From Aplysia californica (taxonomy: Eukaryota), in the NCBI RefSeq assembly GCF_000002075.1, contig NW_004797277.1:1013946-1041035 (forward strand): 27,090 nucleotides of DNA, written 5' to 3'. Position 1 is the first letter of the stretch. Every line of letters begins with the position of its first letter. The notes beneath the pieces are model-generated. The model was not told where the DNA came from. It did no database searches and worked only from the letters and a program-made list of their open reading frames with translations. Shown here piece by piece: positions 1 to 24,397 of the stretch. A program made the translations under genes and the position numbers.

Positions 1-140
1 TGTCGTTGTATTTCTAAGATTGTCGTTGTATTTCTAAGATTGTCGTTGTATTTCTAAGATTGTCGTTGTATTTCTAAGATTGTCGTTATATTTCTAAGAT
101 TGCCGTTGTAGTTCTAAGATTGTCGTTGTATTTCTAATAA
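1..140. repeat. 20-bp minisatellite (TGTCGTTGTATTTCTAAGAT)x7, probably continuing upstream of the window
   Basis: There are four perfect copies, then variants tgtcgttata..., tgccgttgtagttctaagat and tgtcgttgtatttctaataa. Confidence 0.95.
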
Positions 141-1118
141 TATTGTCAGAGTTGTCGTTTATAGGGATAGATCTAGAATCATTAACGACGCCGAATTGAG
201 AACCGCAGCTACATGTATCTGTTTTGTGAAGAAAAAAAACTTCCAGAAATATCTCCCATCCCAAAATAGTATCTTTGGAAGGGAACAAAGATGTCTGTCA
301 TTGTAGGATTATGTCGAGGTGCCGAGAAAAGAGACGGTGGGGGGGCTTTTGGGTTTAGAATCAGTGACAGCTCCGTTTTTACTCGCCAACTTTGAGCACT
401 GCTAGCGTAGCCATAAGGAAAAACCGCCACAACAAATACAAGAAAAATGAAAAATATTCGATTGTAGCATTCATTGATTATTCTGGCAAACAGGTTTTTC
501 TAGTTTAATATTTAGAGATGGTGTCGTGTTTTGATAAGGACCTTGTGACTATGAAAGACGCTGGTGCGAAGTAATCATAACAACTGAACTAAAAAGACTG
601 CTTCCGCATTTTGTTTTGATATCATGAACTGAGCAACAAAGCCGGAGAAGCCTTTTTTCTGTACGAATAGGCTCTTGTTTTTCAAGCGGATGTTTTCAAC
701 AAATCTGTTGCATCATTTTTCCGAGTCTGTGGATCTGTTACACGTGCCTTGGGGCATGGAAAATGGTGTTGGTGGAGAGATATCAACCAAAAATAGGCCT
801 ACTGTGTTATATAGAGCATATTACAAAATGTGTAAAACATCATACCAGGCTACAAAAAAAAAGTCATGAAAAACGAAAGGCCATATTGTCTATTCACGTC
901 CGCTAACAAAATGTAACAACAGCAGGAACAGCAGCCTTGCTGTTACCCTTCCTATCTTTCCATTTCGAATATTACTACTATAATCAGCACGGTTTAGACC
1001 ATTTAGGAAGGGAGCTGCTCCAGGCCTCCCTATCTGTCAGGGCCAGTCCGAAGAGTTTGAAATGCTACATGTCAGCAGTATGACAGACGAGCTAGATTAC
1101 TTCCGCTTTCGTCCCTTG

Positions 1119-1202: not shown

Positions 1203-3249
1203 GGGGTGCATTATTTAGGTGATGCCTGCGTTACAGAAATTATTTTATTGAGATTCCCCGTTCAGTATGCTGAGAGGCAGCCTGCACAACATAGTCAAGG
1301 CCAACCTCGAGCCCAGCAAGCAGCCCATCTCTTACATTATTTTTATGTGCGAGTTTAATGCCGTACTAGGCACAGATATACCATTTTGAAAATGTAGCAC
1401 TTGGCTAGATAAGAAAAGTAAAGAAGAGTTAAAATACACAATGAGCCAAAGAGTATATTATGACATATATATCATGTATATTTGAGCATAATCATCATAG
1501 GATCATGAGAGTTATTCCACCATTAGGAAGGTTACCCCCTTCCACCCCCACCCCAACTCCCACATCATTACACTCTCATTCGGCCAACTAAATTTTGGCC
1601 TAAATTCATGATGAGAGTGAATGGTGTAAGGTATAGGTTTCAACCCCGGCAGACACTGTTTAGTTATTTAAGAATTGTATTGTTTTCTTCGTGCCCTTGG
1701 ATTGTTTTCATCTGCTTTCTTTGCAGAACCAGGGAAACGTTATAATGGGTTTTACTAGTATGATGAATTTTTTTTTTTTAAGGGATTTTAGAAATGTTGT
1801 GTAAACATCCGCTTAAACAACACACTCAAATCTCCATTTTATCTGAGCGAAAACGGTGAAAAGCCTTGAAAATTCCATTAACAACGCATTTTCAAGAACA
1901 CCCTGTTTAAGGACAGTCGACTCTGGGCTATTCAACACGTAACCCAGCATATCACACAAAAACCCCACCAAACCTATCGGCGAACCCTACAATGGAGGCG
2001 CAGAGTAAAAAGAAATGATTTTGAAATTTCAAGTAACAGACGCCGCCGGACACGGCCAAAAGAACGACCTAGTTTCCACCAACATTTTCCATATACCGTA
2101 TAGCTGCATCAAATGTATCGATACGTATTTTATATTTCACGCAGAAAGTTTGATGGACACATAATATCTTCAATTTCACGAAATCTTCTCATGTTCGTGA
2201 GACGGAAGTCATAAATATTATTTATGTAGTAGGGTGCTTCATTTTTTGTTGTCGGGTAGTCATCTGCGTAGGCGCTGTTTACAGCTTCACAAGGCTTGCA
2301 TTTCTTGTTCGGTTCAAAACAATATTTTTAAATATTTTACTGATCGTAGAAGCCAAATGGGGTATTCAATAACAATTTGTTGAAAGGGAATGGTAAAAAA
2401 AAAGTTTTAAAAAAAGCTGTAGGATACAGTTGGTGCCATTATAAAATGTTTGATTTACGCTAACGAGGACACAAACCGTAAAGGAACACCCCTCCCCTTG
2501 CACAAATACAAATAAATCATCACATTTTTGTAAACGTCGTATACGAGACCAAAGTACAGCAAAATTAGGAACAGCGTCTCCTTGAAGTTGAAGTGCTCCT
2601 TACCTCTTTCCTCTCCCGGTTCCACTTTTCTTTTTTTTACATCGTCTCATGCATCTGTTCTCTTGTAATTATTTTGGCCAACAGAGCAGACAACATTAGA
2701 TACGTCAAAAAGAGTGACCTTTGTTTGCGTCGGCGTTTATTTATTGCGTTTATTTTGTAAAGTGGGAATTTCTTCTGAGTAAAAAGGTTGACAGATAAAA
2801 TTACCCTTCCTCCTTTAACAAGGCCGTCTCAGCTTCCAAGACTTGAGACAATAATTGTGTTGTTTTGTAGTATGCCCTACTGCAGTCGCATGCGTGGGTG
2901 TAGTTATAATTATATGTTCCAAAGTCTTGAACCTTGAGTTTCGTTCAACCGTATGTGGGTCATCTCTGCGCCGGATTGTGTTTCGTCGTTTACAATATAT
3001 TCCGAAAAAGTTTTTTTTATACATCAAAACTCTTTATAGCTTTGCCCTGTCTCAACAAAGAAAGCAGATTAAAAACGAAACCCAAGGGCACCAACAAAAC
3101 CAAACTACGCTAAAGGCTCTCAGGAACCGAAAGACAATTCGTTCCGAGGGGCTGTGTCGTTTAAATCTTGCACTGAGACTGAGAGTAAAGTGTAAGCTAG
3201 TGTCAACCGATCAAATAGTGATTGATTATTGTAGGTTTTAAACTCCCCA

Positions 3250-4189: not shown

Positions 4190-4846
4190 CTATAGTGCGG
4201 TCAAAAATTCGTGGTGCAACCTATCCTCAAATATCTCTTTAACAGGTGAATCAATGTCATCCATACTTTGCATAGCAGTTTGTATCAACTTGTCATAACT
4301 AAATCTCATTTTTCTAAAACAATTGGGTCCAGATTAAAAACATTTTCTCCATAAATTTATATAAAATACTTGAAATCTCTGTCACGCGTAAATTTGTATT
4401 GTTCACAGCACTTCCCGCTTCTCACTCATATTTTGATTACTCGTATGGCCTACGTCACAGCTCATCAAAGACAATTTTTACTTGCAAAACTTGTTACAAG
4501 ATATTATTGTTATACTGAACATATTTTTGCACTAATGGCTCTCAAAACATGCGTTCAATAAGCATAATGTCCCGATTAGAAAAACCTGACAGACTTGCTA
4601 TTAAAAGCTATATTGCCCCAGCTGTAAACATTTAAAAATCTGTAGAAACCGCCCACTTGGATGTTTTATTAGTATTTATTAAGTAATTTTCTAGAATACA
4701 GCTTGCAGGTGTTTGAAAAAATGTTGATCTGCTAAGACAAATTGATACAAGTCACTGTGCAAAAATTGGAGAACCTAGATCTATGTTCGATAGTTCAGCA
4801 GATATTTGAAAATAAGTCGCACCACGAATTTTTGACCGCACTATAG
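4190..4846. mobile_element. Putative MITE bounded by about 46-bp inverted repeats (4190-4236 and 4801-4846)
   Basis: ctatagtgcggtcaaaaattcgtggtgcaacctatcctcaaatatc against the reverse complement of gatatttgaaaataagtcgcaccacgaatttttgaccgcactatag (about 41 of 46). The internal 560 bp is AT-rich and non-coding. Termini and TSD are not resolved. Confidence 0.4.
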
Positions 4847-7689: not shown

Positions 7690-7900
7690 GGAGATGAAAA
7701 GTCTTTTCGTTTTAGTAAGAGAAGAGTTTTACAGCGCTTGCAAAACAATAAGGTAATGAAAATGCCATAGATTAGAGGTGTTACAAGAGAGCAACAAACA
7801 CATAAAAGAAGGAGGAGAGATAAGGATGATAGATAGATGTCAGATAAGAAAAAAGGTGCAAACAACACCAGAGCACCCGGCAGCCATCTACAGATGTATA
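7690..7900 (+). repeat. Dispersed repeat family C, copy 1 (about 200 bp)
   Basis: gttttagtaaga...cttgcaa...gccatagattagaggtgttacaagagagcaacaaacacataaaagaaggaggagagataagg...gataag...caaacaacaccagagcacccggcagcc, against 24770-24980. Confidence 0.65.
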
Positions 7901-8299: not shown

Positions 8300-8790
8300 G
8301 CAAGCTGACCATTGACCAGTAGATTGATGCACCACAAACATCGAACATTTGTGAGACATCATGGTGAAAGACAGGCGCCTGTCAAAATAATGAAATCAAG
8401 GAAACCAGCATTTTCCGCCGGTTTGCCAATCTTTATCAGATTTTTGTTTTTTGGCTCAACAACTTTCATATTCATTTTATTAATACATTTCTGTGTGGAT
8501 GTTACTCAAAAACACTGACTTTAAAAAATGCAAATTTGCAGCTTCCTAGGACTCTCAAACTTTGGAAGTCGCCAGCTTAAGGGGCGAATTTCTCTATAAT
8601 TTTACCTCAAGACTATGCAACCCCCACCTCATTCAATCCCAAATATCTCAACTTCTATTCAAGATAGTTGAATATTTTTAAAATCTAAAGCAAGACAAAT
8701 GAACAAGATTTAATAGCTCCCCAAGCCCAATACCTGATGAGCACCTGATTCCATGGCATCATGACACATTTGATCACTGCTAGCAGTTCA
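8300..8790 (+). repeat. Dispersed repeat family B, copy 1 (about 450 bp, unclassified)
   Basis: It is colinear with 23930-24392. Shared blocks include gtcaaaataatg, tttctgtgtg.at, aaactttgg, attcaatc.caaata, ttcaaga.a.atag, aagcaagacaaatgaacaag, tgatgag.gcctgatt and catgacacattt. Confidence 0.7.
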
Positions 8791-9020
8791 TGAAAACCTG
8801 TAACTTTCCTTTCACTGTGGTAGAGTACAAAGGACTGCATAATCCATGACAGACAAAGGTCTCTACGTGTCATTCAATACATTTTCTTTTTCCCCAACAA
8901 TCTTATTTTTGCACTTAATAATATATTATGTCATAATAAAATTATATCCACCAAAGATAGCAAAGTGTGGATACTAGTACAGTTTCTTTCATTCTTGAAT
9001 TGGTTAAATATGACTACATA

Positions 9021-9199
9021 CAGTGGAAACCACATATAACAGGCCCGGTAATAACGAGGATCCGGAAATAATAGGTATTGTTTAAATCCCCGTTTTTTCC
9101 TACTCTTTGTCTCTATTAAAAGTAATCGGCAATAACAGGGCCTCATCGGAGCCTAATCGGTTATAGCAGGGACAAAGGCTCGTTAACAACGTGTAAAAA

Positions 9200-9286
<87 letters not shown>

Positions 9287-9644
9287 TGTGTGTGTGTGTG
9301 TAATGCAGTGATGGAGCAAGCCCACACAAACAAGCGACACCACTGCAAGCACACGCAGCGGTGAAGCGAGAGAGGACTGCGGTGTGCTGGCAGACTTCGA
9401 TCCAGCCCTAAGCCTAGCTACAAGCACGCATAATGTGTCATGTGCAGGCCTGCCACATAGCCACAAGAGAGGACTGCGGTGTGCTGTTCTTGTGTACTTG
9501 TGGCAAGGGAAATTACCAATAAATAAATACAGCTGGATTAGTCCACAAATGCTTACTTCCCTTGCATTTCTGATTTAACAGGGATCTGATACAATAGGAC
9601 TTTTTCTCTGGTCCCATCATCCCAGTTACATTAGGTTTCCACTG
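9021..9644. mobile_element. Tc1/mariner-type MITE (about 624 bp). Termini are CAGTGGAAACC...GGTTTCCACTG with about 26-bp imperfect TIRs and TA flanks. It contains a (GA)n microsatellite
   Basis: Left end ta|CAGTGGAAACCACATATAACAGG at 9019-9043. Right end CCAGTTACATTAGGTTTCCACTG|ta at 9622-9646. About 22 of 26 TIR positions match. There is no ORF with transposase motifs inside. Confidence 0.65.
9203..9300. repeat. Compound microsatellite (GA)n of about 40 units, then (GT)8, inside the first MITE
   Basis: Direct reading. It drives the track ORFs 9100..9466(-). Confidence 0.98.
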
Positions 9645-9656
9645 TAAGTGTATGTA

Positions 9657-10486
9657 CAGTGGAACTCGGATTCAACAAGGTCGTCGGGCCTGACCTAAAA
9701 TCTCGTTGAATCCGAGTGTTCGTTACTGCAAACACGAGGTTTTGTGTAGATAATTACAGGCACTGAGCAAGTAATGTACAAGAGAAGTCATAAGTAGTGC
9801 CTGAAATGCCTGCATATTATGAGCTGTGTAAAAAAAAAGACCGATTCGTTCAAATACACATGCCTGTGTAATCTCGATTGTTTACCACAAAGTTGTGTTG
9901 CTGTAGAGCCTAGCATACGGCAAATTTTGATTCCATAGACCAGCGCACAATTCAGTACGTAGATCTACGTCAAGACTAGCTTATTATTAATTATTGTAAT
10001 ATTGATCAGTTGCCGAGGGAAAAAAAGACTATGACACGTTTGTATGCGACGTTCAACACCCGGACCGCAAGTGCCCCCTCCCCGACACGCACTCACAGTC
10101 ATACGTGTGCAGGCCGCCCATTCGACCCAGACACACGCCTGAGTAGACACATGCACGTGCCAACTTCACATGTGTTGGTATTTAAGAAGGCCGCTGATTG
10201 GTCGCATGCAATCGGTTAAGTGAATAATGGTTCACGATGCAGGTGCAATGGATGGTTTTCGAGAATAGATACAGTTTGTTCGGGGAGAAAAATTAGCGAA
10301 GCCAAGTCTGCGGAGGCTGTTCACCCTGGAAGCGACCTCGTTTAATCCGAGCTCGCTGATTTAAGTACTCGTTGAATCCGGGTTACTTTTATTGATTTTA
10401 AAGGAAAAAAAACCCAGGGAATTTATCTCATCTCGTTGAATCCGAGTTCTCGTTGAATCCGAGCTCGTTAAATCCGAGTTCCACTG
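9657..10486. mobile_element. Second Tc1/mariner-type MITE (about 830 bp). It has 24-bp TIRs CAGTGGAACTCGGATTCAACAAGG / CTCGTTAAATCCGAGTTCCACTG, TA TSD, and at least 5 subterminal copies of TCGTTGAATCCGAG
   Basis: Left ta|CAGTGGAACTCGG at 9655-9669. Right CCGAGTTCCACTG|ta at 10474-10488. The motif TCGTTGAATCCGAG (the inner half of the TIR) recurs at 9702, 10338, 10368, 10431, 10449 and 10464. It is separated from the first MITE by only 10 bp. Confidence 0.7.
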
Positions 10487-10772
10487 TATAAAAAAAAGAC
10501 AACTAAGAGGAGTAACAATCCAAAAGATAGCTATGTACAAAGCTGACTGTATATACAGTCGACAGAGTCTACTCAAAGTAGCAGACTTTACACTTTTGCT
10601 TTCTACTCCATATTCCTAGTAAATAATATGTGACATTGTGAGCTGCTGATGTGAAGTCAAGTAAGAGTAGACAACAAGAAAAGGGGAGACATAAAAAGCT
10701 CCAGGTATAAAAATATGTAGTGCATATAAAAAAACAAACTGATATGTCTTTATGTCTTTATTGCCAAATATG

Positions 10773-11479: not shown

Positions 11480-12218
11480 TTTATTTACTGATTCTTAATC
11501 TGTTGTGTACCTTGCATGTGACCGAAAAACATTTGTCCAAATTTGATTTCTAAAAGTTGAAAAAAGCAAGAAAAGATACACAATGTAGGTGCAATTTTTC
11601 AACAGATTTACTTTATCTCTAGGAAAATTTCGTTTTCTGGGCGTAGACCAGTTGACCAGCTTGCCTGCAATATGAATTCCACTACAATTTTCATGGCCTC
11701 TATTTCCTTCTAATGAAGGTCATAACAGTACACTCAATCATTTCAATTATGTTTATACTATTGACTTTGAATCAGTCTGTGACTCACTGCACAAAAAATT
11801 CAACAAACCTCGAAAGTTCTACAAAATACTTAAAATCTAGTCTAAAGTTAAAGTCCAATTCCAATTAAAGAAAAGTCTGAAAGAAACATGTACGTCATTT
11901 GATCTTATTCAATCCATCTTCAAAAACAGAGATTTGAACAGGATATTTATAACATTTGATCTTATTCACAGCCTGTGCTCAACAAATCAAGAGTTCAACA
12001 AAACATTTATATCATTAAGAACAGATCATATTCACAGTCTGTACTCAACAAATAAAGAGTTCAACAAGACATTTATATCATTAAGAATTGATCATATTCA
12101 CAGTCTGTACTCAACAAATAAAGAGTTCAACAAGACATTTATATCATTAAGAGTTGACTATATTCACAGTCTGTACTCAACAAATAAAGAGTTCAACATC
12201 ACAGCAAGACGTCGGGAG
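11480..12218 (-). other. MVP: Putative MVP 3'UTR. It contains a 66-bp tandem repeat. The first minus-strand AATAAA downstream of the stop is at 11480-11485
   Basis: This is the region immediately downstream (minus sense) of the TAA. Plus-strand tttatt at 11480-11485 is the first canonical poly(A) signal on the gene strand. The transcript end cannot be set from sequence alone. Confidence 0.25.
11880..12205. repeat. 66-bp tandem repeat, about 4.5 copies (3 near-identical, 1.5 diverged), starting about 15 bp after the MVP stop codon
   Basis: The unit acatttatatcattaagaattgatcatattcacagtctgtactcaacaaataaagagttcaacaag starts at 12003, 12069 and 12135 (period 66). Diverged copies lie at 11880-12002. 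It produces the artifactual plus-strand track ORF 11934..12317. Confidence 0.9.
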
Positions 12219-12335
12219 TTATTCTTGAGGGTTCTGCCCCCCAACCAGGCCAGAAGCAGTGTTCAGAAGGTTGATCGGGCTGTTACCATCAGTCAGCAAG
12301 ACGCTCTCGAGGCCTAGACCTTTCAGCAAGTTCAC
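12219..12335 (-). CDS. MVP: MVP terminal coding exon: [38 protein letters not shown]. The TAA stop is at 12219-12221
   Basis: Acceptor cacctcatcag|GTG, in phase 0 from exon 15. It matches human [32 protein letters not shown]. There is an in-frame TAA. No donor is needed. Confidence 0.88.
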
Positions 12336-12686
12336 CTGATGAGGTGAAAGGTTGAAATTTAAAAAATCAATTTCAACTACTCATTGGGAAATTTTTTAAA
12401 AGCCAACTATGAAATTAAGGAAAGGGAAAAAGTAGGTTGAGTACTTCATACTGAATTAAAGAAAAAAAGAAAAAGAGGAAGTTAAAAGAAGGGAGCACTT
12501 GCCTTCAGGGTAAACTTCATACTTATGAAGTCACTTTCAAATAAGAAAAGAACAAGACCAAATCGTTTCTGCATAAATGACTTACACCTATAATATACTA
12601 TTGCTGCAAACAAATTTGTAAACATTCAAAGAATGGCCAAAAAGGGTGAAATATCTGGGAAAAAAGGATGAAAAGATGATACCAAC

Positions 12687-12767
12687 CTGACTTTCAGGTC
12701 CTGCATTTGCTATGGCAACAAGGGTATCAGTCCCAAGGGTTTGAACCATTTGACGGAACTTGTTAGT
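12687..12767 (-). CDS. MVP: MVP exon 15: TNKFRQMVQTLGTDTLVAIANAGPESQ
   Basis: Acceptor tcttgtattgcag|ACT and donor AGTCAG|gttggt. It matches human [27 protein letters not shown]. Confidence 0.9.
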
Positions 12768-13105
12768 CTGCAATACAAGAATAAAATTTGGATACGATAA
12801 GAATATAAGGTAAAATACTGGTTTTTCCCATATACAACACTATTTAACTCACTGACTACTGTCATCGCAAAACTTGAGATGTTTTTTCACAATGCCTGAC
12901 TACTGCCATTTCATTTGTTGCCACATCAAACTTCAGAATTGTTTTTCTAATACTGGCAACCCAACTGTCATGATGCGGACAGTGATCAAAGTTGTAACCA
13001 TTCCCATTTCCATTAAATCAAAGTAGAAGTCTCTAACATGAAATGTTTCATTCAGATTTATGATTTTCTTGTTACTGTTACCCGTAACATTATCTGTGTG
13101 ATAAT

Positions 13106-13120
13106 GGGGGGGGGGGGGGG
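13106..13120. repeat. Poly-G homopolymer (15 nt) in an MVP intron
   Basis: Direct reading. Confidence 0.95.
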
Positions 13121-13950
13121 TTGACGGCGAGAAGTTAAACAGCATAATCCTACTTGCTGGCTCATTAAGCGCAGCAATGACAATGATATCCATCCACTAA
13201 AAAACAAAAATTTACCTTTATATGAAACTAGTGGCAGATCTTCGAGTCAAAATCTGTCACTTCAGTTAAATCAGTGAATAAAACTTCAGTTCAGCAAACC
13301 TCTGGCTCTAAATCTTGCAACGCACCTAGACCTACGGCAAATATATTTCATTTATTCCCTGCTAACTATAGCTGTTTTAGTCCATTAGATTCAGAGACTA
13401 ATAACAATAATAGTTTGTCCAATAATGTCCGACGAGGACAATGGTATATCCTCTTAATGTGTGTCAGTAACATATTCTTAGTCATGTAATGTTCGAAGAG
13501 GAATGAAACAAAGTGAAAAAAATTGAGGATAAATTAGGGTCAAATAAAGAAATTAAAGCCCCAAAATTAATTATGATAACCCCTTTTTGATCATTTCAAA
13601 ACAAACCATACTTGTATAGATATAGAACACCTTCTGTGAATGATTTTTTGAATAAGTATGGACAAAATTAATGTTTTTAAAATACCTTTCATTTGACTAG
13701 TCACTAGGGGTCAATCCAGGAGAAAATTGCAGTTAGTCCGTGAATATCAAGACCAGGGAAGCTGGGCCTTATGGCGGGAGTTACGGGAAGCCATTAACAA
13801 AATGTCAATCATTCAAGGTCAGTTCCTTACGTGCCTTCAGTTTCAAACAGACCCCAAATGAATTTCTCTAAAATGGGAAAAATGATGAAAACTTTTTCCC
13901 ACACCATTTAAAACAGGATACAAAGAATGAATATTGTCTAAAAGGCATAC

Positions 13951-14031
13951 CTCAAGTTGTGCAAATGCATTCTCTTTGCCAATGGTGATAGAGTTCATTT
14001 TCTTCTGATAGTCCAATGTTTGCCTCCGCAG
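13951..14031 (-). CDS. MVP: MVP exon 14: LRRQTLDYQKKMNSITIGKENAFAQLE
   Basis: Acceptor ttttgatcttattcacag|CTG and donor CTTGAG|gtatgc. It matches human [26 protein letters not shown] (L.Y pattern, then KA.QLAE.E). The track ORF 13952..14137(-) is a different frame and was not used. Confidence 0.78.
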
Positions 14032-14439
14032 CTGTGAATAAGATCAAAATAATATCATTAAAAACTATTACTAAAGTTTTCAAAAGACAAAGTACGAGAT
14101 TGTTTATTCCATATTGTCCTTCCTTCTTGTTAGGCAAACACTCACTTAAGTCCGCCTGCTCATAGCTCTCTTCGTGGTGTTTCCCAATGACAAAGAAGAG
14201 CAGTTAAAAAAAACTTATTTTTTTTTTTTTTTAAAACAAACACTTATAAAGGAAACATCTCTAAAATAAACTTCTAATCAGCAGCTCTCTCACTCAACTT
14301 AATTTGTACTTCAACTGATTCCCACATTTAACGAGTAATATATTAACTAAATACCATATCAGACTGAATTATCATTTATCTAAATAACGCAGCACATAGG
14401 AGCAGAAATCTAATAAAATCCACACTGCCAGACTCTGAC

Positions 14440-14504
14440 CTTATTCTCAAACTGTAGCTTGGCATCATGCTCTATCTGTGAGGCTTCAGCCTTCAGTCTG
14501 GCAG
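14440..14504 (-). CDS. MVP: MVP exon 13: (A)ARLKAEASQIEHDAKLQFENK
   Basis: Acceptor gtatttctcattctag|CT and donor AATAAG|gtcaga. It matches human QAKLKAQALAIETEAELQRVQKV. Confidence 0.85.
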
Positions 14505-15070
14505 CTAGAATGAGAAATACATACGGGTTACTTCAGGACAAGCAGTCTATCTAAACAAAATTCAAGCAGAAATGATTTATAAGATAATCAATCTTTTAAA
14601 ACAAACACAAGAGGACGAAAACATAAATTCACACTCTGCATGTGTTTTCAATAAGACATAACGTTTGAGATTTGGGGATGTGGGCACCAAGAAAAGCACA
14701 GTGGAAATTGTCAACAAACGATGATTTGCCAGTTTGTAAAAACTAGCCAAATTATGCCATGTGAAATTACTCCAAACCAAGCCGTGTACATAGGAAGGCA
14801 GGCCTTTAGTAATCTACCTATAAAGTGGCCCTAAGCAAGACAAATAACGATTTGGTTTCTATTGTACATCCTTAAAAAGTTGTATTTCTATTTTAAAACA
14901 AACCATAAAACAACAGTCGTACCTGGAGGGGGTCAAGTACTTTCTGTAAATCACTGCAAAAAGAAGTAGATTATTTTGCACCAGTTACAACCAGTCTACT
15001 TTTATTTAATGACTCATCCCATTCAAGCATAGCCCCAGTGTGTAAAATCTTGGTGTAAAGAGGCACGTAC

Positions 15071-15297
15071 CATCAATCTGACTCTGGCACTCGATGAGGA
15101 ATCTCTCAGCCTTGGCTTGAGCCTCAGCCTTGGCCTGTCCCGTGGATTCAACAGCTGATGCCAAGGCCCTCAGCTCGTACAATTTTGCCCTTTCTCGCTC
15201 AGACTCTTTCTCCGTTACCAAAATTTGTCTCTCCAGGTGCCCTTTGGCAATCTGTTCTTCCCTTTGAGCTTCATGTGATGCAGCTGCTTCAATAGAA
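15071..15297 (-). CDS. MVP: MVP exon 12: (N)SIEAAASHEAQREEQIAKGHLERQILVTEKESERERAKLYELRALASAVESTGQAKAEAQAKAERFLIECQSQID(A)
   Basis: Acceptor tttgtatttttccaacccag|T and donor GATG|gtacgt. It is a strong match to human [74 protein letters not shown]. It overlaps the track ORF 15006..15344(-). Confidence 0.92.
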
Positions 15298-15816
15298 CTG
15301 GGTTGGAAAAATACAAAAATGCTTTTGTTCTTCGGCGCTGGCAAATTTCTAATAGGCTACTAAATTTATTTATATTTCATTTTGATCTTTCACAGTTGAA
15401 AAGTATTATCAATGAGGAAATAAACAGCAAAAATGTACAACTCTGGACAAAACATATCATCTGAATAATACATAAAAATCAACATCAGTGTTCTTATAGT
15501 TTTGCCTCTTAAATTGAAACACAAGGAGGGCTGGTTGCAGGAGAAAAGTTGCAGGAGAAAAGATACTAAGACAAGGTAATGAGATACACTTGATCCCACC
15601 AAGTAATTTCCTACAAAAGCCCAATAACAATTATTAATACAGCATTGAAGGCCACTTTAGGTCACATCATTATCAAACAAAGGGGCACAATACTTTCAAA
15701 TTTATCGGCCCTACCCTTACCAAAATGTCACATTTATTTCGGTGTATCATCTCTGCCTTCCATTATCATTATCTACTTTTTCCCTTTATTATTATGTAAA
15801 ACCACTCAAGGAATCT

Positions 15817-15830
15817 CCCCCCCCCCCCCC
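15817..15830. repeat. Poly-C homopolymer (14 nt) in an MVP intron
   Basis: Direct reading. Confidence 0.95.
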
Positions 15831-16043
15831 TTTAACCCTAGCCTACTAACCAAAGAGATCTCTACATTTGTTTCAGAAAAATGTATTCGATACTAATGCA
15901 CAAATCCTTCCAAAACACAACTGAACAATAAATAAAGCTATTTTTAAGTGCAAATTTTTCTTTACTTGTGAACCTTCTCACTGACACAAATCACTGCTGA
16001 AAAGAGTTAGAAAACAATTTTTAAAAAGTCCTACTGAACTCAC

Positions 16044-16144
16044 TTTGTAGCAATTTCAATAGCAAGCTGCACTGATTTGCTCAAACTGTCTCTCATCTTG
16101 GCATCAGAGGGTTCAATGCTCTGAACATCAATGCCACTGATAAC
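16044..16144 (-). CDS. MVP: MVP exon 11: [33 protein letters not shown](N)
   Basis: Acceptor ttatttcttcactag|GTT and donor ACAAA|gtgagt. It matches human [34 protein letters not shown]. Confidence 0.9.
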
Positions 16145-16880
16145 CTAGTGAAGAAATAACCAATCACACACAGAACATGAAAAGGAGTAAAACTCATGGG
16201 CCTCAACTCAGAATTTTAAAAAAGGAGGAACTTTCCTCGTGATCGTGACAGAAGACCATTTTTGCGAGACACCCATTATCATTATACTGTAAAACCCTAG
16301 AATGCTGAAAAAACCCCCACCAATTTATCAAAGCAAGGTTATTTCATACCAATTTGAGGGTATGGAAGATGATTTCAAGTAAAAGAGTAGCAGTAACTGA
16401 GTTTAGCGGAGGAAATGGTGGTAGCGGGAATCCACTAAATAGCAGAATATTGAGACCCATAAAAACTAAACGGCAGAGGATGGTGGGAGGGGGAGAGGGA
16501 TGGGGAGAAACAAGTTGATTAAAGACAAAATGACACAATGAGGACAGTGTTGACAACAAAGTAAAGAATGTTCCCTTGGACCTATGAACAAATTTCTCAT
16601 TTATTTAAGATCTTGATCCCCTTGGGCAGGTCCCCCAGCATAAATCATTTTAAAAAGTGGTCAGCCATCTTCAACATATTCAAGATTTCGATCATTTGAA
16701 TTGACACCCCCATCCCCAACCCCCCATACATATCTTTGCCCAACCTATTTTCCACGCACTTCAAAATGAGATGCACTTTAACAATCATCAACATACAGTA
16801 GTAAGTTATAACAAAGGGTGGGACAAAAATCTGTGGATGGGGATAAATGGAAACGACACAGAGCGTGTTATTCAGGCCAG

Positions 16881-16903
16881 TTGTTGCTGTTGTTGTTGTT
16901 GTT
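16881..16903 (-). repeat. (CAA)n 3' tail of the LINE (reads as TTG repeats on the plus strand)
   Basis: ttgttgctgttgttgttgttgtt lies immediately 3' of the ORF2 stop on the element strand. Confidence 0.7.
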
Positions 16904-17294
16904 ATCGATCCAGCAACATCTGGGCTCTCGCCCTTCTGTCCAATGCCATGTAGTGATAAGTGCAGGTTTGCTGCAGTTGCTGTAATGTTCCGTAGAGTGT
17001 GTTGTCGAAGTTAGGTCTCGGAGGGAGAAGGGTAGCTCTGATGTCATTTAGGGCTGTACAGTGGAAAAGGTGATGTTCCACTGTCTCATATGCATGGTCA
17101 CACAAAGGACACATTGGGGGAAGTTCTGGTTTTATTCTGTTTAAGTGAAAGTTGAGCTGTATATGTTCTGTTCGTAGGCGGAAGATCGTGGTCTGTTTCT
17201 TTCTCTGTAGGTGGTTGATATTGTCATTTCGTTTTGTTGTAGTCATATGTTTGAAAACTGCTCTGCCCGTCTTTCCCAAGGCCCATCTGTTCAT
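16902..17294 (-). pseudogene. LINE ORF2 C-terminal cysteine-rich (CCHC zinc-knuckle) domain. It is frameshifted relative to the RT/RNase H frame
   Basis: CPLCDHAYETVEHHLFHC in the track ORF 16902..17294(-). This frame differs from the upstream 17291..18856 frame, which is a decay frameshift. The stop TAA at 16902-16904 directly abuts the (CAA)n tail. Confidence 0.75.
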
Positions 17295-18856
17295 CCAATC
17301 TTGTTTGCTGTTGCTTTTAATGATTTGTTTTGCAGTGTGGTATGAAGTTGGAATGTTGGTTGTTCCTGTCTAGATCCCCTTTTGGCGAGTGTGTCTGCTC
17401 TGTCATTTCCAGGTATGTTTGAGTGTCCGGGAATCCACTGCATCACCAGGTTGACGCCACAGAATGTTATCAGATGATGGGAGCCAAACAGTATATGTGT
17501 CAAGTCTTCATTTAGATGGTGATAATTTTCTATTGCTTGCAAGACTGATAATGAGTCAGTGAAGATCACTATACTCTGGGTTTTGTTTGGATGAGTGTCA
17601 AAAACTGTGCGGAGATGGTATAGTGCTGTTTCAATTGCTATCATTTCTGCGTCGTAGTTGTTGCATTTCTCTCCACAGGCTGCAGAGATCTCATTGGAAC
17701 TTCCATCTGGGTATTGTATTAGTATTCCATATCCGGCTTTGGTTGTGCCTTTGAATGCTGAGCCGTCTGTATAGACCTGTATCCAGTCATCTGAATAGCT
17801 GTCGATTGTTTGGTGTGAAAGCATCAACTTCACTGGGTCTGAAGATTTTGTGCTATTGTCTCTAAGAGAAGTTTTAATGATTGGTTTTTCCATAGAAAAG
17901 TGAGGAGGGATGTTTTGGTTGACTCTTTTGGTTTCTCTTCTATTTTGTGGTAGGTGGTGGCTCTCCATTAGTTCTGTGATGCGATGCATGACTGATTTTT
18001 GTTGAAGTCGTTTCTTTGGTTTCCATGTTTCTACTAATTTCCTGTTTGGGTGGTTGGGGCACATTCTTTTGGTTCTTTCATGAAGCTCCAAAACTGTTTT
18101 ATCTCTGCGTATTCCCAGGGGTTCAACATTTGACAGAATTTCACATGCGGCAGTAGGTGTAGATCTCATGCCACCATTAATGAAACGAAGGGCATTATTT
18201 TGGACCTTGTCAAGGGTATTGCAAGTAGTTGCACTACACGTAGTGAGTAGGCTATTGCTGTATTCCAGGGAAGATCGGACATAACCAAGGTATAGAGCTC
18301 TCAGAATTTGTTTGTCTGATCCCCATGAACTGCTCGCAAGTTTCTTTAAAAGTTGGAGTCTTCTTTTCGCCTTGTTCTTTATGCTCTCCACTTGGCTTTT
18401 CATTGTTAGACTTTGGTCAAGTTTGACTCCTAGATACGTTGGTTGTTCTTCTTTGGGGAGATTTTCATTTCCTATCTTCAGTTGGAGTTTTTCTTTGGCT
18501 ATTTTATGGCTCTTTGTAAAGATGGTGTATACTGTTGTCGAGCAGTTTATTTTGAGCTTCCATTTCTGACAGTAATTGTGGAGCCTCTTGAGGTCTTCAT
18601 TTAATTTTCCTGCTCCTACTACCGTGCTGCGATGTGTCTGCCAGAGAGCAAGATCATCAGCGTAGAGAGTCTTTTCTGATTTCAACACGTTCGTCACATC
18701 ATTAATGAAGATCAGGAACAAAGTGCAACTCGGAGAGGAACCTTGGGGTAGGCCCTCCTCGAGTACTTCTCTTGATGAGTGGGCATTGTTCAGGCCAGTA
18801 GGAGTTAAGATTATATCAATAACTCCACTTGCCCAAACATTGACAAGCGACTGATT
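17291..18856 (-). pseudogene. LINE ORF2 fragment: reverse transcriptase (motifs A-like, B, C and later) plus RNase H. The open frame is bounded upstream by a stop at 18857-18859 and has no true start
   Basis: This extends the track ORF 17291..18721. Its first 'M' is actually TTG, and the frame stays open upstream through GLPQGS (motif B) to a TGA. The motif 2 to motif A spacing is collapsed to about 6 codons (internal deletion), and the catalytic D of motif A is lost. Confidence 0.85.
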
Positions 18857-19349
18857 TCACAGCACCATGACACATATGAGGAGTGAAATCCTGACTCTTC
18901 ATGAAGGGAAACATTGTATCATCACTCTCTTCAAAAACCTTCAATACTTCTACAAACCAATCAGTAGTCTAATAAATATATTTTCATTCCCATTTCTTTT
19001 GTACAAACATACAGCAGTGCAAGTGGACTTGATACATCATCATCATCATCCAGTGCCTTGCCGACTGGATTGGGCGATCATGGACCTCCACTTCACTCTG
19101 TCTTGTGTTGCAGCAATGGTGTCTGTTGTTCTTGCTGCTCCCAGCCATGTTGTCATCTTGTCCAGTATCTTTTCCCTCTATCAGCCTCTGCCTCTCTTTC
19201 CACCAAACTTGCCTGTTGTTACAATATTCTCCAATGCTTCTTTCCGCATTGTGTGTCCAAAGAAATTTGCCTGTCGCTTTATACATATTCATGAAAAAAA
19301 AAAGGTGTGGTTAGACCTCTTGGGTCCTTTTACATGCAGTATGACTCAC

Positions 19350-19474
19350 CAGATTGTTCACATCAAATCTCAAAGACTGCTGCTTCCCAAACACTGCTGC
19401 TTGTATGAGCTGGGCAGAGTGGCGGTGGAACTCGTCAAAAGTAATCAATGCAACCGAGGCACGGATACGGCTAG
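19350..19474 (-). CDS. MVP: MVP exon 10: (A)[41 protein letters not shown]
   Basis: Acceptor ccttttttatgcctcttcag|CT and donor AATCTG|gtgagt. It matches human [31 protein letters not shown]. Confidence 0.88.
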
Positions 19475-19923
19475 CTGAAGAGGCATAAAAAAGGTCACAC
19501 TGTACACTCTATTCAATGAGTCTGAGATGTCTCTAATAATGGCATATCAAAACACTGAGTACAAAAAATCCTTAGAAATAAAAAATAAAACAAAAACAAA
19601 AAACTATATACTCTGCAGATATCATTACCAGTCCGACATAGTACAATTTTAGTACAAACCAAAGATGACACAAAACAACATTATTTGTGAATCTACTTTG
19701 CTGGGATTGCTAGAAAAAGAAGTTTAAGAAAAAAACAGCAACCCAAAACTATTCTACTACACAGCTAAGAGCCATCAACCAATATTTTAGGAAAAATTAT
19801 ACCCTAAAATTGCACAAAAACAATTCTTTTAAAAAAGAGTCATCCAAAGCTAGATTTAATTGTAAGATTGATGAATGCTAAATATTGCAACATCATTTCT
19901 TTAAAACTACTCATCATTTCTCA

Positions 19924-19974
19924 TTTAGTAGAGGTTTTACGGCGCTCGCAGCTGCATAAGGTCATATGAGCGCC
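19924..19974 (+). repeat. 51-bp hairpin-containing element, copy 1 (inverted partner at 21500-21550)
   Basis: tttagtagaggttttacGGCGCTCgcagctgcataaggtcatatGAGCGCC. It has an internal 7-bp stem (GGCGCTC/GAGCGCC) and a gtcatatgac palindrome. Confidence 0.85.
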
Positions 19975-20053
19975 AATCATCATTTCTGATTTTAAAAAAC
20001 CAAAACAAGTACACTGTCAATGTTGCCAAACTTCAGATAGCTTGTAAAATTAC

Positions 20054-20132
20054 CTATCTGACGACAGGCAAATCCGATGAAATCAGGCACTGAAAATATT
20101 TTGCGAGTACTCTCCAGGTCTGTTTTGTCCAC
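20054..20132 (-). CDS. MVP: MVP exon 9: VDKTDLESTRKIFSVPDFIGFACRQI(A)
   Basis: Acceptor ctctctgtgtttttaag|GTG and donor ATAG|gtaatt. It matches human [28 protein letters not shown]. Confidence 0.9.
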
Positions 20133-21185
20133 CTTAAAAACACAGAGAGAGTAGAAAGACATTTTAACACATAAATTTGAGTATAGAAATGTTCATGCTG
20201 AAAAAAATGTGTCCAGTTTTATTAAAGCAATGGGCATCGCTGATTATTCTTTAAAAAATGAAACGAGACATTTTTAATGGATGCAAACTTAAGTTTTAAA
20301 TCTCTTTTACAATGCTCTGGAACTTCACTTTTGTTTTCAAGGACAGACGGAAAAAAAGAGCATATTGAACTATTTTCCCAATTCAGTCTATTGTATTTAT
20401 CAAAAAACATACCAAACAGAGATATATTGAAAAGGATATAGATTACGATTTGAAAATACAACAAGACACATTTTTACAAACTTTATTAAAATTTTTATTA
20501 TTGCAAACAAGGTAATAATAGTTTTACCATTATAAGAAATTGTATCTACTCCTTCAGCTAGATCTTAGGGTAAGTAAGAATAGAATGTCAACCTGGGTGT
20601 TACTAATTTGTTTTCCTACAAGAACAAAGAGTCCTTCACCTTTCAGAGTGCTAAATGCCATTCCCAAAGGTTTTTTTACTTATTTGTACCAAAGAGTATT
20701 TCTTCTCCTCCGACTAAGGATGAACTTGGAATTACAAGTGCTTTTCCCTTCCTTTAACATTCAAGTACCAAGGAGTTTGTAAAATATATACAAACTGTAA
20801 AACTTTTGGCCTGCTACATCCTTCCCTATCTATTTTAACCAAGGGAGGAAACCTGCATAGAAAACTAACTCATCTTCAGCTGCACAGTGGTGATCAGCAA
20901 TGGCATGTTTGTGAAACTGTTCTGTATTGGTGTGATATTGTGTATTTATGTATAAATTCAAATGTGCATTTATGTATCTATTTCTTATTATGTATTTACG
21001 TATGGGTGTTTGCCATTGTAACCCAAATTTCCCTACGTGTATCAATAAAATGTAATTTATTTTCTTTCTATTTAAACACCACTGTACTAATCTTTAGCAG
21101 AACCTGCTTCTTTGGAATAGTAGGTGTGCACAGTGCATATATCTCCACACTACCAAGCTCGTCAGTCAGCATCTACATTACTTAC

Positions 21186-21245
21186 ATCAAAATAGTTGTT
21201 AAAGGCAAGGCGAATACGCAATCTGGCATGATCAGAAGTCTCCAC
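21186..21245 (-). CDS. MVP: MVP exon 8: VETSDHARLRIRLAFNNYFD
   Basis: Acceptor cgtctttttcag|GTG and donor TTTGAT|gtaagt (perfect donor). It matches human [20 protein letters not shown]. Confidence 0.9.
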
Positions 21246-21499
21246 CTGAAAAAGACGTACATAAGAGAAAATGGTCACAATATATGCATTCTTTTCTTAT
21301 ATATACAATAAGTTGGTAATCTGTTCAGAAGATAGTTCTGCCACGATCAAATGATTATAAAGGACTCCGCTCAACTATTTCGATTATGCTGCAGCATGAA
21401 AACAAACAAGATGAAAGTTTACCAAACATCTATCGTCCTTATCTCCCCTCCTTCTTTTTTATGTTTTATGTTACTCTCTTGTAACAGCTCTAATCTTCT

Positions 21500-21550
21500 G
21501 GCGCTCATATGACCTTATGCATTTGTGAGCGCCGTAAAACCTCTACTAAA
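21500..21550 (-). repeat. 51-bp hairpin-containing element, copy 2 (reverse complement of 19924-19974, about 47 of 51 identical)
   Basis: ggcgctcatatgaccttatgcatttgtgagcgccgtaaaacctctactaaa. Flanks beyond the 51 bp are unrelated. Confidence 0.85.
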
Positions 21551-21615
21551 ACTAAAAAATACAAGATGAATAATTAGGAAATAAGTGATGAAGATAAAAT
21601 GTGACAGGTTCTTAC

Positions 21616-21695
21616 CTCAATAACGTCAGTAATGAAATCTGGACCAAGCATGAGGCACAATGATTTCAGTGCATTGGGCAGCTTTGGTTTGCCAG
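21616..21695 (-). CDS. MVP: MVP exon 7: (A)[26 protein letters not shown]
   Basis: Acceptor ttattgtttatgcag|CT and donor ATTGAG|gtaaga. It matches human [29 protein letters not shown]. Confidence 0.9.
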
Positions 21696-22484
21696 CTGCA
21701 TAAACAATAAGAAAAGAGAGAATTATGTCAAGTTCTTAGGTTCTGCAAGGTTCTCAACCACAGCTAGAGCTGAGCACCATAAAGAATTTCATTTACAGTT
21801 TGATCTTGACTTAAGCTATACATTTTGATAAATGCAGTTATCTTTGTGTTTTCTTTTAGTTTAATTCCAGAGCAGCAAAATCAGTTCGGCACAATATGGT
21901 GAAAAGGCTACGACAAAGTGAAAAAAAAATCTAAACAGGACAAAAAAGCAAAACATAAAAAATTGTGCAGAATTTTCCAATTAATACACAATGGGATCAC
22001 AATGAACACCAAATTAAAATAAAGTATTAACTAAAACATCCCCATAAAAATGATACTCAACCTCATCAGCAATGGGAATGCATGAAAAGCTTGATGTAAA
22101 GATCCTTATACAATAGGAAATTCAGGAAGTAAGAATGACTAATAATAATTTTGAGATGTCCAAGAAAAGCTAAATAATCAAAAATGAGTTGTAGTTCTGA
22201 TACCAATGAGAGTGATATGTCCTTACCAAGTCACAATGCTGTATGTACCCCATGGGAAATGATTGTAAATTGATGTAATAAATACTTGATAAAGAGAATC
22301 AGTGCTAAGTTATGTGAGCCAGTCCTGGATCGGAAAAGTAAAAAGTATGTGAGCCAGTCAACTGAATGGATGTATGAATAAAAATGTTCCTATGTCATTT
22401 TTTAAAAACTCCCTGGAAAACAAATAATGTGAGAGAAGTTAAAAGGACATGCATGAAGAAAAGAATGACATGTTTGTTCTTTAC

Positions 22485-22638
22485 CGCTCAGACTCAAAAC
22501 GTTAAAGTTTTCATGAGGCCCCAAAACAACGAGATCGGGTCCAAAGATCACTCGTGCTGTCTTCTGCAGGTAGTCGTAAACCTGCACAGCTGTATTGCTG
22601 GGACATCTGTAAGTGACAACCTTCGTTTTGTCCCGTCC
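22485..22638 (-). CDS. MVP: MVP exon 6: [51 protein letters not shown]
   Basis: Acceptor ttttctactgccattcag|GGA and donor AGCG|gtaaag. It is a strong match to human [51 protein letters not shown]. It overlaps the track ORF 22402..22659(-). Confidence 0.92.
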
Positions 22639-23677
22639 CTGAATGGCAGTAGAAAACAATACAGTTTGTTAACACCCTGAGGTAGAGTAGGAGATGAAAG
22701 CTAAAAGAAAATAATTTCTTTAAACATTATTTAAGCAATTGAATGCCAACAAATAAAGCTATTCCTGCTTATTCTATTGTTGTTTCCTCTTAGTGTTGAA
22801 ATACCAATGTACTTGATCCCATTATTACAGCAAATGATATGAATGAGATCATTAACATAGCACCCATAAAAGGTAGCGGGACAAAACAAACAAAACAAAT
22901 AAAAATGGTTTAAAGTTTTATATCTCTTCACAAAAACAATGTCAATGTTGCCCTATAGAGGACCAAAAAGACTGTATCAAGTCTAATCTTTTTTTGTTAT
23001 TTTGTAAAATAAGATTACAAATTCAGCATCCATTCACATGAATATTTCTGTAACAACCAACAAATCGAGTCCTGCTGATCACAGAAGTAACTAAATACTT
23101 TTTAAAATATTTCAATATCAATACTGACTTTCTGGAACCCTGAGAGGGATTTTCTTTTTAAGATGGCTTTTATGAACTATAATGATAATGTTTTTTCTAG
23201 GTGATATAGTATCCCAATACAGTTTTACTTGCTGATGAGTGAAAGTTTATCTTGAGTCCACACAAAATGGCCAGGGGTCGCAGTGAACAGATTAGAATAA
23301 TATTTCACAAAAGAGTAGATCACATCAGAGCCCTACCTACCACCCTCTACTAGAGCTTTACTCCAAAGCAAATCCTAGATAAGATATAAAAATAAATGAA
23401 CACTTGAGAAGTGCTTTGTTACTTTCATGAACTTAAAGAGAAAGCAGGAATCTGTATCTTTAGCATTTGCTTGAGCTCAACACCTAAAGAGACACAAACA
23501 ACTCATATCAAATGAAGACCAACTGGCCAATAGAGCAGAACAGTGGAGAAGAAAGAAAAAAAATAATGGCTTAATGACTATTGGGCAGTTATTCCACTAT
23601 CAGAGAGGTTACATGTCTGGCTGGCATGACGTGAGTCTATTTGCTATTTCCCAAACCCATCGTAAACGTATCCTTAC

Positions 23678-23756
23678 CTCAGCGTTCATTGGGTCAATAG
23701 ACTGCTCATAGTAAGCAAGCTTCCTGATATCACCCTCTCCAGAGCCACCACCATGT
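23678..23756 (-). CDS. MVP: MVP exon 5: (R)HGGGSGEGDIRKLAYYEQSIDPMNAE
   Basis: Acceptor tcttgatcttacag|A and donor GCTGAG|gtaagg. It matches human NKGQDPLADRGEKDTAKSLQPLAP loosely. Phase is consistent on both sides. Confidence 0.8.
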
Positions 23757-24392: not shown

Positions 24393-24397
24393 CTTGT

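What the first reader, a model, noticed from the sequence alone, without database searches (positions are those of the whole stretch)
9019..10488. Two tail-to-head Tc1/mariner-type MITEs sharing a CAGTGGAA terminus, each flanked by TA
Element 1 (9021-9644) and element 2 (9657-10486) both begin TA|CAGTGGAA and end TTCCACTG|TA but differ internally. They lie only 10 bp apart. Element 2 has an IR/DR-like architecture. The 14-bp motif TCGTTGAATCCGAG, which forms the inner half of its TIR, is repeated at least 5 times near the right end and once inverted near the left end. This resembles the multiple transposase-binding sites of Tc1/Sleeping-Beauty-type elements. Shared termini with different bodies suggest two MITE families mobilised by one transposase. 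It may also be a nested insertion hotspot.
Basis: seen in the sequence. Interest (0 to 1): 0.6.

Follow-up and report, generated by a model that had tools for sequence, protein, structure and literature searches.

The report
Two adjacent TA-flanked non-autonomous DNA transposons
Two short, non-coding "cut-and-paste" transposon relics sit side by side just downstream of an animal's major-vault-protein gene; they look real but are an ordinary kind of genomic parasite, and I could not test copy number, a partner transposase or an empty site.

Summary
E1 (9021-9644) and E2 (9657-10486) each start TA|CAGTGGAA and end TTCCACTG|TA. Their terminal inverted repeats are 28-29 nt long. The 15-bp motif CTCGTTGAATCCGAG occurs 7 times, only inside E2 (0.07 expected for the 14-mer). 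The interiors are unrelated, non-coding, and match no Pfam or Rfam family.

The window is animal DNA. The pair lies 1.8-3.2 kb downstream of the stop codon of a minus-strand major vault protein gene.

The best reading is two independent insertions of non-autonomous Tc1/mariner-superfamily elements at neighbouring TA sites. E2 appears younger: its TIRs are better preserved, and its CpG o/e is 1.13 against 0.2-0.3 in the flanks.

A metagenome scan found E2's exact 18-nt terminus in five contigs of one unrelated eukaryotic assembly (JAAUYM01). Those contigs are dense with TA-flanked mini-elements carrying CAGTnGAAC termini, so this terminus type does mark mobile elements.

Three things were not shown: other copies of E1 or E2, an autonomous transposase, and an empty site. 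The source species is absent from the searchable collections.

"IR/DR-like" is only partly apt, because the motif array is asymmetric and the TIRs are short. "One transposase for both" is unproven: only 7 of 15 positions in the presumed binding region are shared.

Verdict: a new member of a known kind, of low interest.

The parts
9019..9020 (.). TA flanking E1 on the left (putative target-site duplication)
   Evidence: no longer direct repeat in the flanks
9021..9644 (.). E1, a 624-bp non-autonomous TIR element
   Evidence: (I2); no Pfam or protein-database hit
9021..9043 (+). E1 left TIR, CAGTGGAAACCACATATAACAGG
   Evidence: I2: 28-nt arms including TA and flank, 82% complementary
9622..9644 (-). 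E1 right TIR, read inward as CAGTGGAAACCTAATGTAACTGG
   Evidence: I2
9203..9301 (.). (AG)41 and (GT)8 microsatellite inside E1
9369..9389 (+). First copy of a perfect 21-bp direct repeat inside E1 (AGAGAGGACTGCGGTGTGCTG); the second copy is at 9466-9486
   Evidence: D5
9466..9486 (+). Second copy of the 21-bp direct repeat inside E1
   Evidence: D5
9645..9646 (.). TA flanking E1 on the right
9647..9654 (.). 8-bp host spacer AGTGTATG between the two insertions
9655..9656 (.). TA flanking E2 on the left
9657..10486 (.). E2, an 830-bp non-autonomous TIR element; GC 44.7%, CpG o/e 1.13
   Evidence: (I1)
9657..9683 (+). E2 left TIR, CAGTGGAACTCGGATTCAACAAGGTCG; contains the motif copy at 9665-9679 in inverted orientation
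   Evidence: I1 (29 nt with TA, 90%)
9702..9716 (+). Exact motif copy CTCGTTGAATCCGAG near the left end, inverted relative to the left TIR; the two form a 16-bp-stem hairpin
   Evidence: (I6); fold z = -4.05
10337..10351 (+). Motif copy, 1 mismatch
10368..10382 (+). Motif copy, 1 mismatch
10431..10481 (+). 17-bp x 3.1 tandem array holding motif copies 10432-46, 10449-63 and 10464-78; it runs into the right terminus
10460..10486 (-). E2 right TIR, read inward as CAGTGGAACTCGGATTTAACGAGCTCG
   Evidence: I1
10487..10488 (.). TA flanking E2 on the right

Best explanation
E1 and E2 are two different non-autonomous cut-and-paste DNA transposons. They are MITE-like, though at 624 and 830 bp they are at or above the usual MITE size. 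They belong to the TA-targeting IS630/Tc1/mariner superfamily and inserted independently into two TA dinucleotides 8 bp apart, in the AT-rich 3' flank of a major vault protein gene.

Inferred mechanism, by analogy with Tc1, Tc3 and impala: a transposase supplied in trans by an autonomous relative elsewhere in the genome binds the inner part of each TIR. For E2 this is the 15-bp unit CTCGGATTYAACRAG at nt 9-23. For E1 it is a different sequence, ..ACCWNATRTAACWGG. The transposase cleaves next to the terminal CAGT and integrates at TA, duplicating it.

The extra motif copies in E2 are either additional binding sites or, for the three terminal ones, a product of replication slippage.

E2 is probably the younger insertion. 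Its TIRs are 90% against 82% complementary, and it is not CpG-depleted although the surrounding DNA is. Neither element encodes anything, and nothing indicates a host function.
For: Shown:
- Exact TA|CAGTGGAA...TTCCACTG|TA architecture twice, with 28-29-nt TIRs.
- No direct repeat in the flanks longer than TA.
- Seven copies of the 15-bp motif, confined to E2.
- No coding capacity: no Pfam family in E1 or E2 or in any open stretch of at least 55 aa in the window apart from MVP and a non-LTR retroelement. No protein-database match to any E1 or E2 frame. No Rfam family.
- Unrelated interiors.
- GC 45-47% against 33-36% in the flanks; CpG o/e 1.13 for E2 and 0.55 for E1, against 0.22-0.31 in the flanks. 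This marks them as foreign inserts of different age.
- The 18-mer TACAGTGGAACTCGGATT hit 5 contigs of one eukaryotic assembly, out of only 7 metagenome hits. Those 32 kb hold 19 TA|CAGTnGAA termini. Several are paired at 67-160 bp with TA on both sides and have heterogeneous interiors.

From the literature: Fusarium mimp MITEs have the TIR consensus CAGTGGG.GCAA[TA]AA (PMC6131394). Six families are defined by their TIRs, and mimp1 is mobilised by the Tc1-like impala transposase (PMC5579170).
Against: - No second copy of E1 or E2 was found: none in the window, and none in 5.8 billion predicted proteins by translated search.
- No transposase with these ends was found.
- No empty site is available. 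The orthologous locus of a related species (L010) aligns only in exons. The TA could therefore formally be part of the inverted repeat rather than a duplication.
- At 624 and 830 bp the elements are larger than classical MITEs.
- The adjacency of two elements with identical 8-nt tips is not explained by independent insertion alone.
Confidence: 0.75

Rival explanations
1. E1-spacer-E2 is one composite unit, or a fragment of a larger repeat. It moves or was duplicated as a whole using the outermost ends, rather than arising from two separate insertions.
For: The outer tips (9021-9028 and 10479-10486) are perfect inverted copies of each other, like the inner ones. The two elements are only 12 bp apart.
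Against: Each element has its own well-matched TIR pair extending to 28-29 nt, and the cross-pairs match only over 8 nt plus scattered positions. The two differ in CpG decay and TIR preservation, which suggests different ages. No repeat extends beyond the outer TAs.
Confidence: 0.07
2. They are TIR transposons of another superfamily. The TA is either part of the inverted repeat (no TSD, or TSD lost) or the 2-bp TSD of a non-Tc1/mariner group, for example the TRC subgroup of CACTA or ISL2EU-type elements.
For: Without an empty site, TA duplication is not proven. Groups with 2-bp TSDs exist outside Tc1/mariner: PMC4298943 describes CACTA 'TRC' elements with 2-bp TSDs.
Against: All four flanks are TA specifically, and so are nearly all flanks of the related termini in JAAUYM01. 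The termini begin CAGTG like Tc1, Tc3 and impala/mimp (own knowledge; PMC6131394), not CCC or CACTA.
Confidence: 0.1
3. The multiple motif copies in E2 are not functional transposase-binding sites. They are by-products of slippage or tandem duplication of the terminal 15-17 bp and of an internal partial duplication of an end.
For: Three copies are a contiguous 17-bp tandem array abutting the terminus. Segment 10356-10383 is a 79% direct copy of 9690-9717 including flanking bases (D15). The distribution is asymmetric and one copy has the 'wrong' orientation.
Against: All seven copies keep at least 14 of 15 positions. Subterminal repeats of the binding site are common in functional DNA transposons (established knowledge: Tc3, Sleeping Beauty, pogo).
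Confidence: 0.4
4. These are chance palindromes in AT-rich intergenic DNA, not mobile elements.
For: No other copies were recovered.
Against: The 10-mer occurs 5 times against 0.11 expected, and no shuffle reached 5. TIRs are 28-29 nt. The compositional boundaries fall exactly at the termini. The same terminus ends many elements in another genome.
Confidence: 0.02

Closest known systems
mimp MITEs and the impala transposon of Fusarium oxysporum (Tc1/mariner superfamily)
   Same: These are short non-coding elements with a TIR starting CAGTGG (mimp consensus CAGTGGG.GCAA[TA]AA, PMC6131394). Several MITE families with different bodies are defined by a shared TIR, and mimp1 is mobilised in trans by a Tc1-like transposase (PMC5579170). 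TA target (own knowledge of the superfamily).
   Different: mimps are 180-220 bp; E1 and E2 are 624 and 830 bp. Beyond nt 6 the TIR sequence is different. The host is an animal, not a fungus. No impala-like partner was found here. mimp families share about 16 nt of TIR, whereas E1 and E2 share 8 nt plus scattered positions.
IR/DR-type Tc1-like elements (Sleeping Beauty, Tc3, Minos, Paris)
   Same: TA target, a CAGT terminus, and more than one copy of a roughly 15-bp presumed binding site near an end (own knowledge of the family; for E2).
   Different: IR/DR elements have 200-250-bp inverted repeats with an outer and an inner direct repeat in the same orientation at both ends. E2 has 29-nt TIRs, five copies at one end, two at the other, and the inner left copy is inverted. 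E1 has no such array.
Stowaway / MADE1-type MITEs mobilised by mariner-like transposases (Osmar, Hsmar1)
   Same: Non-autonomous, TA-flanked elements that depend only on their TIRs and subterminal sequence, with heterogeneous interiors (established knowledge).
   Different: Those are 80-300 bp and have different TIR consensus sequences (Stowaway CTCCCTCCGT...; MADE1 from Hsmar1 ends). No sequence similarity to E1 or E2.
Mini-elements in the public assembly JAAUYM01 (L002, L004, L006-L008)
   Same: The first 16-18 nt are identical to the E2 terminus (TA|CAGTGGAACTCGGATT) or close variants (CAGTAGAACACGGATA and others). They have TA on both sides and unrelated interiors.
   Different: They are only 67-160 bp and come from a different organism: GC 43-49%, with no other similarity to the window. 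They lack the ...TCAACGAG continuation and the repeated 15-bp motif of E2.

Membership tests
Tc1/mariner (IS630-Tc1-mariner) superfamily, non-autonomous member | Insertion at TA with duplication of the TA | tested here: inconclusive
   TA is present on both sides of both elements and no longer flank repeat exists. Duplication itself needs an empty site, which could not be obtained.
Tc1/mariner (IS630-Tc1-mariner) superfamily, non-autonomous member | Terminal inverted repeats, typically beginning CAGT/CAGTG in the Tc1-like branch | tested here: met
   TIRs of 28-29 nt at 82-90%, all starting CAGTGGAA. The comparison with Tc1, Tc3 and mimp termini rests on own knowledge and PMC6131394.
Tc1/mariner (IS630-Tc1-mariner) superfamily, non-autonomous member | An autonomous relative with the same ends encoding a DD(E/D) transposase | not testable with these tools
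   There is no transposase domain in the window. The source genome is not in the searchable collections: best MVP-exon match 76%, best RT match 86%.
MITE (miniature inverted-repeat transposable element) | No coding capacity | tested here: met
   Longest ORFs are 101 aa (E1, mostly microsatellite-encoded) and 69 aa (E2). No Pfam hit and no protein-database hit.
MITE (miniature inverted-repeat transposable element) | Small size (usually under about 500-600 bp) | tested here: not met
   E1 is 624 bp, or about 525 bp without its microsatellite. E2 is 830 bp. 'Non-autonomous TIR element' is the safer label; PMC5579170 gives <500 bp for MITEs.
MITE (miniature inverted-repeat transposable element) | High copy number of near-identical copies in the genome | not testable with these tools
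   There is no second copy in the 27-kb window and none by translated search. The genome itself is unavailable.
IR/DR subgroup of Tc1-like elements | Long (about 200 bp) IRs, each with outer and inner direct repeats in the same orientation, symmetric at both ends | tested here: not met
   The TIR is 29 nt. There are five + copies at the right end. The left end has one TIR copy plus one copy in the opposite orientation, and no matching inner copy.

The most novel reading that the evidence does not exclude
E2 belongs to a recently active, still CpG-undepleted family. Its 16-18-nt terminus is shared exactly with a very abundant mini-MITE population in an unrelated eukaryote (JAAUYM01). This would point to a widespread, possibly horizontally transferred Tc1/mariner lineage in marine eukaryotes. 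Its transposase would recognise a 15-bp CTCG-N7-CGAG unit, and tandem amplification of that unit at one end would tune mobilisation.
Probability: 0.1. Interest if true: 0.4.

Novelty: new member of a known kind. Interest (0 to 1): 0.2.

Why it matters
On its own this is routine repeat annotation: two more non-autonomous DNA transposons in an animal intergenic region. It has modest value as a seed. The E2 terminus and its 15-bp repeated unit give a specific probe for finding the family and its transposase in the source genome. The exact match of the terminus in an unrelated eukaryotic assembly could be followed up as a possible case of a broadly distributed or horizontally transferred Tc1/mariner lineage. 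The CpG contrast offers a cheap relative-age marker for insertions in this methylation-depleted genome.

Tried and rejected
- Scan of viral contigs with the E2 TIR: one hit, inside a phage coding region with no TA flank and no mate. This is chance.
- Scans of metagenome and genome contigs: hits L003, L005 and L009 are GC-rich or prokaryotic coding DNA, also chance. Only the JAAUYM01 hits are meaningful.
- Fifth TACAGTGGAA at 17057, with TTCCACTG 9 bp later. I considered a tiny element or an excision footprint. I rejected this because it encodes the conserved zinc-binding motif of a retrotransposon ORF on the minus strand and lacks a right-hand TA.
- Translated search of all E1 and E2 reading frames against 5.8 billion proteins: nothing.
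- Exact look-up of the window's RT ORF: not on record.
- Orthologous empty site: the related MVP locus L010 aligns only in exons and a microsatellite.
- Paralogous empty site: the dispersed repeat at 8626-8771 ends 250 bp before E1.
- Literature search for the terminal sequences returned only PCR primers. The search for the accession JAAUYM found nothing. A sponge/MITE search led to an irrelevant paper, in which 'Spongebob' is a CACTA element.
- Rfam: only sub-threshold noise.
- Pfam scan of all open stretches of at least 55 aa on both strands: only MVP and non-LTR retroelement domains.

Full report
**What is in the sequence**

E1 runs from 9021 to 9644 and E2 from 9657 to 10486. Each begins CAGTGGAA, ends TTCCACTG, and is bracketed by TA.

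The 10-mer TACAGTGGAA occurs five times in the 27-kb window against 0.11 expected, and no shuffle reached five. Four occurrences are the element ends. The fifth, at 17057, is followed 9 bp later by TTCCACTG. It lies in a minus-strand ORF matching zf-RVT, where it encodes ...ETVEHHLFHCT..., and it has no right-hand TA. I treat it as coincidence.

The inverted repeats reach 29 nt at 90% for E2 and 28 nt at 82% for E1. The two elements are separated by TA-AGTGTATG-TA, which is 12 bp between element ends and 8 bp between the TAs.

**Internal anatomy**

The motif is best written as the 15-mer CTCGTTGAATCCGAG. It has 4-bp palindromic ends, CTCG...CGAG. It occurs seven times at up to 1 mismatch, all inside E2, and nowhere else in the window even at 3 mismatches.

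- Five copies are on the + strand in the last 150 bp: 10337, 10368, 10432, 10449 and 10464. The last is the inner part of the right TIR.
- The final three form a 17-bp x 3.1 tandem array.
- At the left end, one copy is inverted within the TIR (9665-9679).
It is inverted relative to the left TIR, and the two form a hairpin (DNA fold -14.9 kcal/mol, z = -4.05).

This arrangement is asymmetric. It is not the outer-DR plus inner-DR design of IR/DR elements.

E1 has no comparable array. It carries an (AG)41(GT)8 microsatellite, a perfect 21-bp direct repeat (9369 and 9466), and a few TAACAGG-like heptamers.

The interiors of E1 and E2 are unrelated: local alignment is no better than shuffles in either orientation.

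The four termini are identical for 8 nt. They then share 7 of the next 15 positions, giving CAGTGGAA..C..AT..AAC..G. That is suggestive of distant relatedness but not statistically compelling.

**Coding and RNA content**

There is none. The longest ORFs are 101 aa in E1, largely microsatellite-encoded, and 69 aa in E2. They have no Pfam hits. A concatenation of every open frame of E1 and E2 found nothing among 5.8 billion predicted proteins. Rfam gave only sub-threshold noise.

**Context**

The window is animal DNA. Minus-strand open segments hit the Pfam families Vault, Vault_3 and MVP_shoulder. One exon ORF retrieves major vault proteins, and the closest named one is from the sponge Amphimedon. 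Five exons align to a related species' locus, L010.

The last coding exon ends with ...GGQNPQE-stop near 12245. The element pair therefore lies 1.8-3.2 kb downstream of the MVP stop codon, in the 3' flank.

A 5'-truncated non-LTR retrotransposon (the C-terminal part of RVT_1, RNase_H and zf-RVT) occupies 16900-18856 in an MVP intron. It is 88.7% identical over 1 kb to a Tara Oceans contig.

No transposase domain exists anywhere in the window, in open segments of at least 55 aa on either strand.

The species itself is not in the protein collection. The best MVP-exon identity is 76% and the best RT identity is 86%.

**Composition**

E1 and E2 are 45-47% GC within 33-36% GC flanks. CpG o/e is 1.13 in E2, and 0.95 in its interior without the motif-rich ends. 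It is 0.55 in E1, 0.22-0.31 in the flanks, and 0.49 window-wide.

The boundaries coincide with the termini, as expected for inserted DNA. Together with the better-preserved TIRs, this suggests E2 arrived more recently than E1. This is an inference: it assumes CpG decay through methylation in this genome.

**Related sequences elsewhere**

Five come from a single WGS assembly, JAAUYM01. The other two, and the single hits in bacterial genomes and in viral contigs, are isolated matches in prokaryotic or phage coding DNA.

The JAAUYM01 loci are eukaryote-like, with GC 43-49% and no other similarity to the window. They contain 19 TA|CAGTnGAA termini in 32 kb. Several are paired at 67-160 bp with TA on both sides and have unrelated interiors. 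Examples are L004 3727-3877, L004 11656-11816, L004 4965-5082, L008 2385-2522 and L002 985-1051.

So the E2-type terminus does function as a mobile-element end in at least one other genome, and there too one terminus type is attached to many different bodies. This is the strongest external support for the transposon reading. It is not evidence about the copy number of E1 or E2 themselves.

**Mechanism**

The best-supported explanation is two independent insertions of non-autonomous IS630/Tc1/mariner-superfamily elements into neighbouring TA sites.

By analogy with Tc1 and Tc3 (established knowledge) and with impala/mimp, a transposase provided in trans would do three things:

1. Bind the inner TIR. 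For E2 this is nt 9-23, the 15-bp unit.
2. Cleave at the CAGT tip.
3. Integrate at TA.

The mimp TIR consensus is CAGTGGG.GCAA[TA]AA (PMC6131394). Six mimp families are defined by their TIRs, and mimp1 is mobilised by a Tc1-like transposase (PMC5579170).

What is shown here is the architecture, the non-coding nature, the compositional discontinuity, and the reuse of the terminus elsewhere. What is inferred is the TA duplication, the superfamily, the binding role of the motif, and the relative ages.

Because nt 9-23 differ substantially between E1 and E2, I consider mobilisation of both by one transposase unproven and rather unlikely. A shared CAGTG tip is common to Tc1-like elements that do not cross-mobilise (own knowledge).

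The tight adjacency could reflect chance in a TE-rich region, a locally favourable AT-rich target, or targeting near a resident element. None of these could be tested.

**Comparison with known families and verdict**

The elements behave like Tc1/mariner MITEs, and mimp/impala is the nearest analogue. They exceed the usual MITE size, and three defining features could not be tested: copy number, the partner transposase and a demonstrated TSD.

They fail the IR/DR definition. This is a new member of a known kind: real, but ordinary. The only mildly unusual points are the asymmetric seven-copy motif array, the CpG-rich state of E2, and the exact terminus match in an unrelated eukaryotic assembly.

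Noticed in passing
window 12241-26800 (- strand): Major vault protein gene. Pfam Vault, Vault_3 and MVP_shoulder hits. Exons at about 20050-20135, 19387-19447, 16038-16147, 15064-15303, 12693-12760 and 12241-12340; the last ends in a stop. The closest named homologue is from the sponge Amphimedon; the same species is not in the protein collection.
   Followed up: partly
window 16900-18856 (- strand); L013: 5'-truncated non-LTR retrotransposon (C-terminal part of RVT_1, RNase H, zf-RVT) inside an MVP intron. It is 88.7% nt-identical over 1011 bp to a Tara Oceans metagenome contig (PRJEB4352). The closest named proteins are molluscan.
   Followed up: partly
window 11896-12198: 66-bp tandem repeat (about 4.5 copies, 84-89% identity) immediately downstream of the MVP stop codon, probably in the 3' UTR.
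   Followed up: no
window 4190-4846: Another 657-bp element with 54-nt inverted termini (87%), CTATAGTGCGGTCAAAAATTCGTGG..., and no obvious target-site duplication. Unclassified.
   Followed up: partly
window 7704-7892, 19924-20060, 21428-21560, 24785-24968: Dispersed repeat family of about 130-190 bp (74-94% identity). Two copies in opposite orientation (19924 and 21550) bracket the MVP exon at 20050-20135. A second dispersed repeat links 8626-8771, 18805-18875 and 24224-24381.
   Followed up: no
window 1600-3100: CpG-undepleted stretch (o/e about 1.0-1.15) bounded by an imperfect inverted repeat (1682-1753 and 3026-3100, 77%). Apart from E2 it is the only such CpG-rich stretch in the window. 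It could be another young element or a CpG island of a neighbouring gene.
   Followed up: no
window 1-146: 20-bp tandem repeat (TGTCGTTGTATTTCTAAGAT, about 7 copies) at the window start.
   Followed up: no
L002, L004, L006, L007, L008 (assembly JAAUYM01): Unidentified eukaryotic contigs, with homopolymer-rich sequence and GC 43-49%. They are extremely dense in TA-flanked mini-elements of 67-160 bp with CAGT[AGC]GAAC termini: 19 termini in 32 kb. L006 shows a duplicated tip (TACAGTGGAAC-TACAGTGGAACTCGG).
   Followed up: partly
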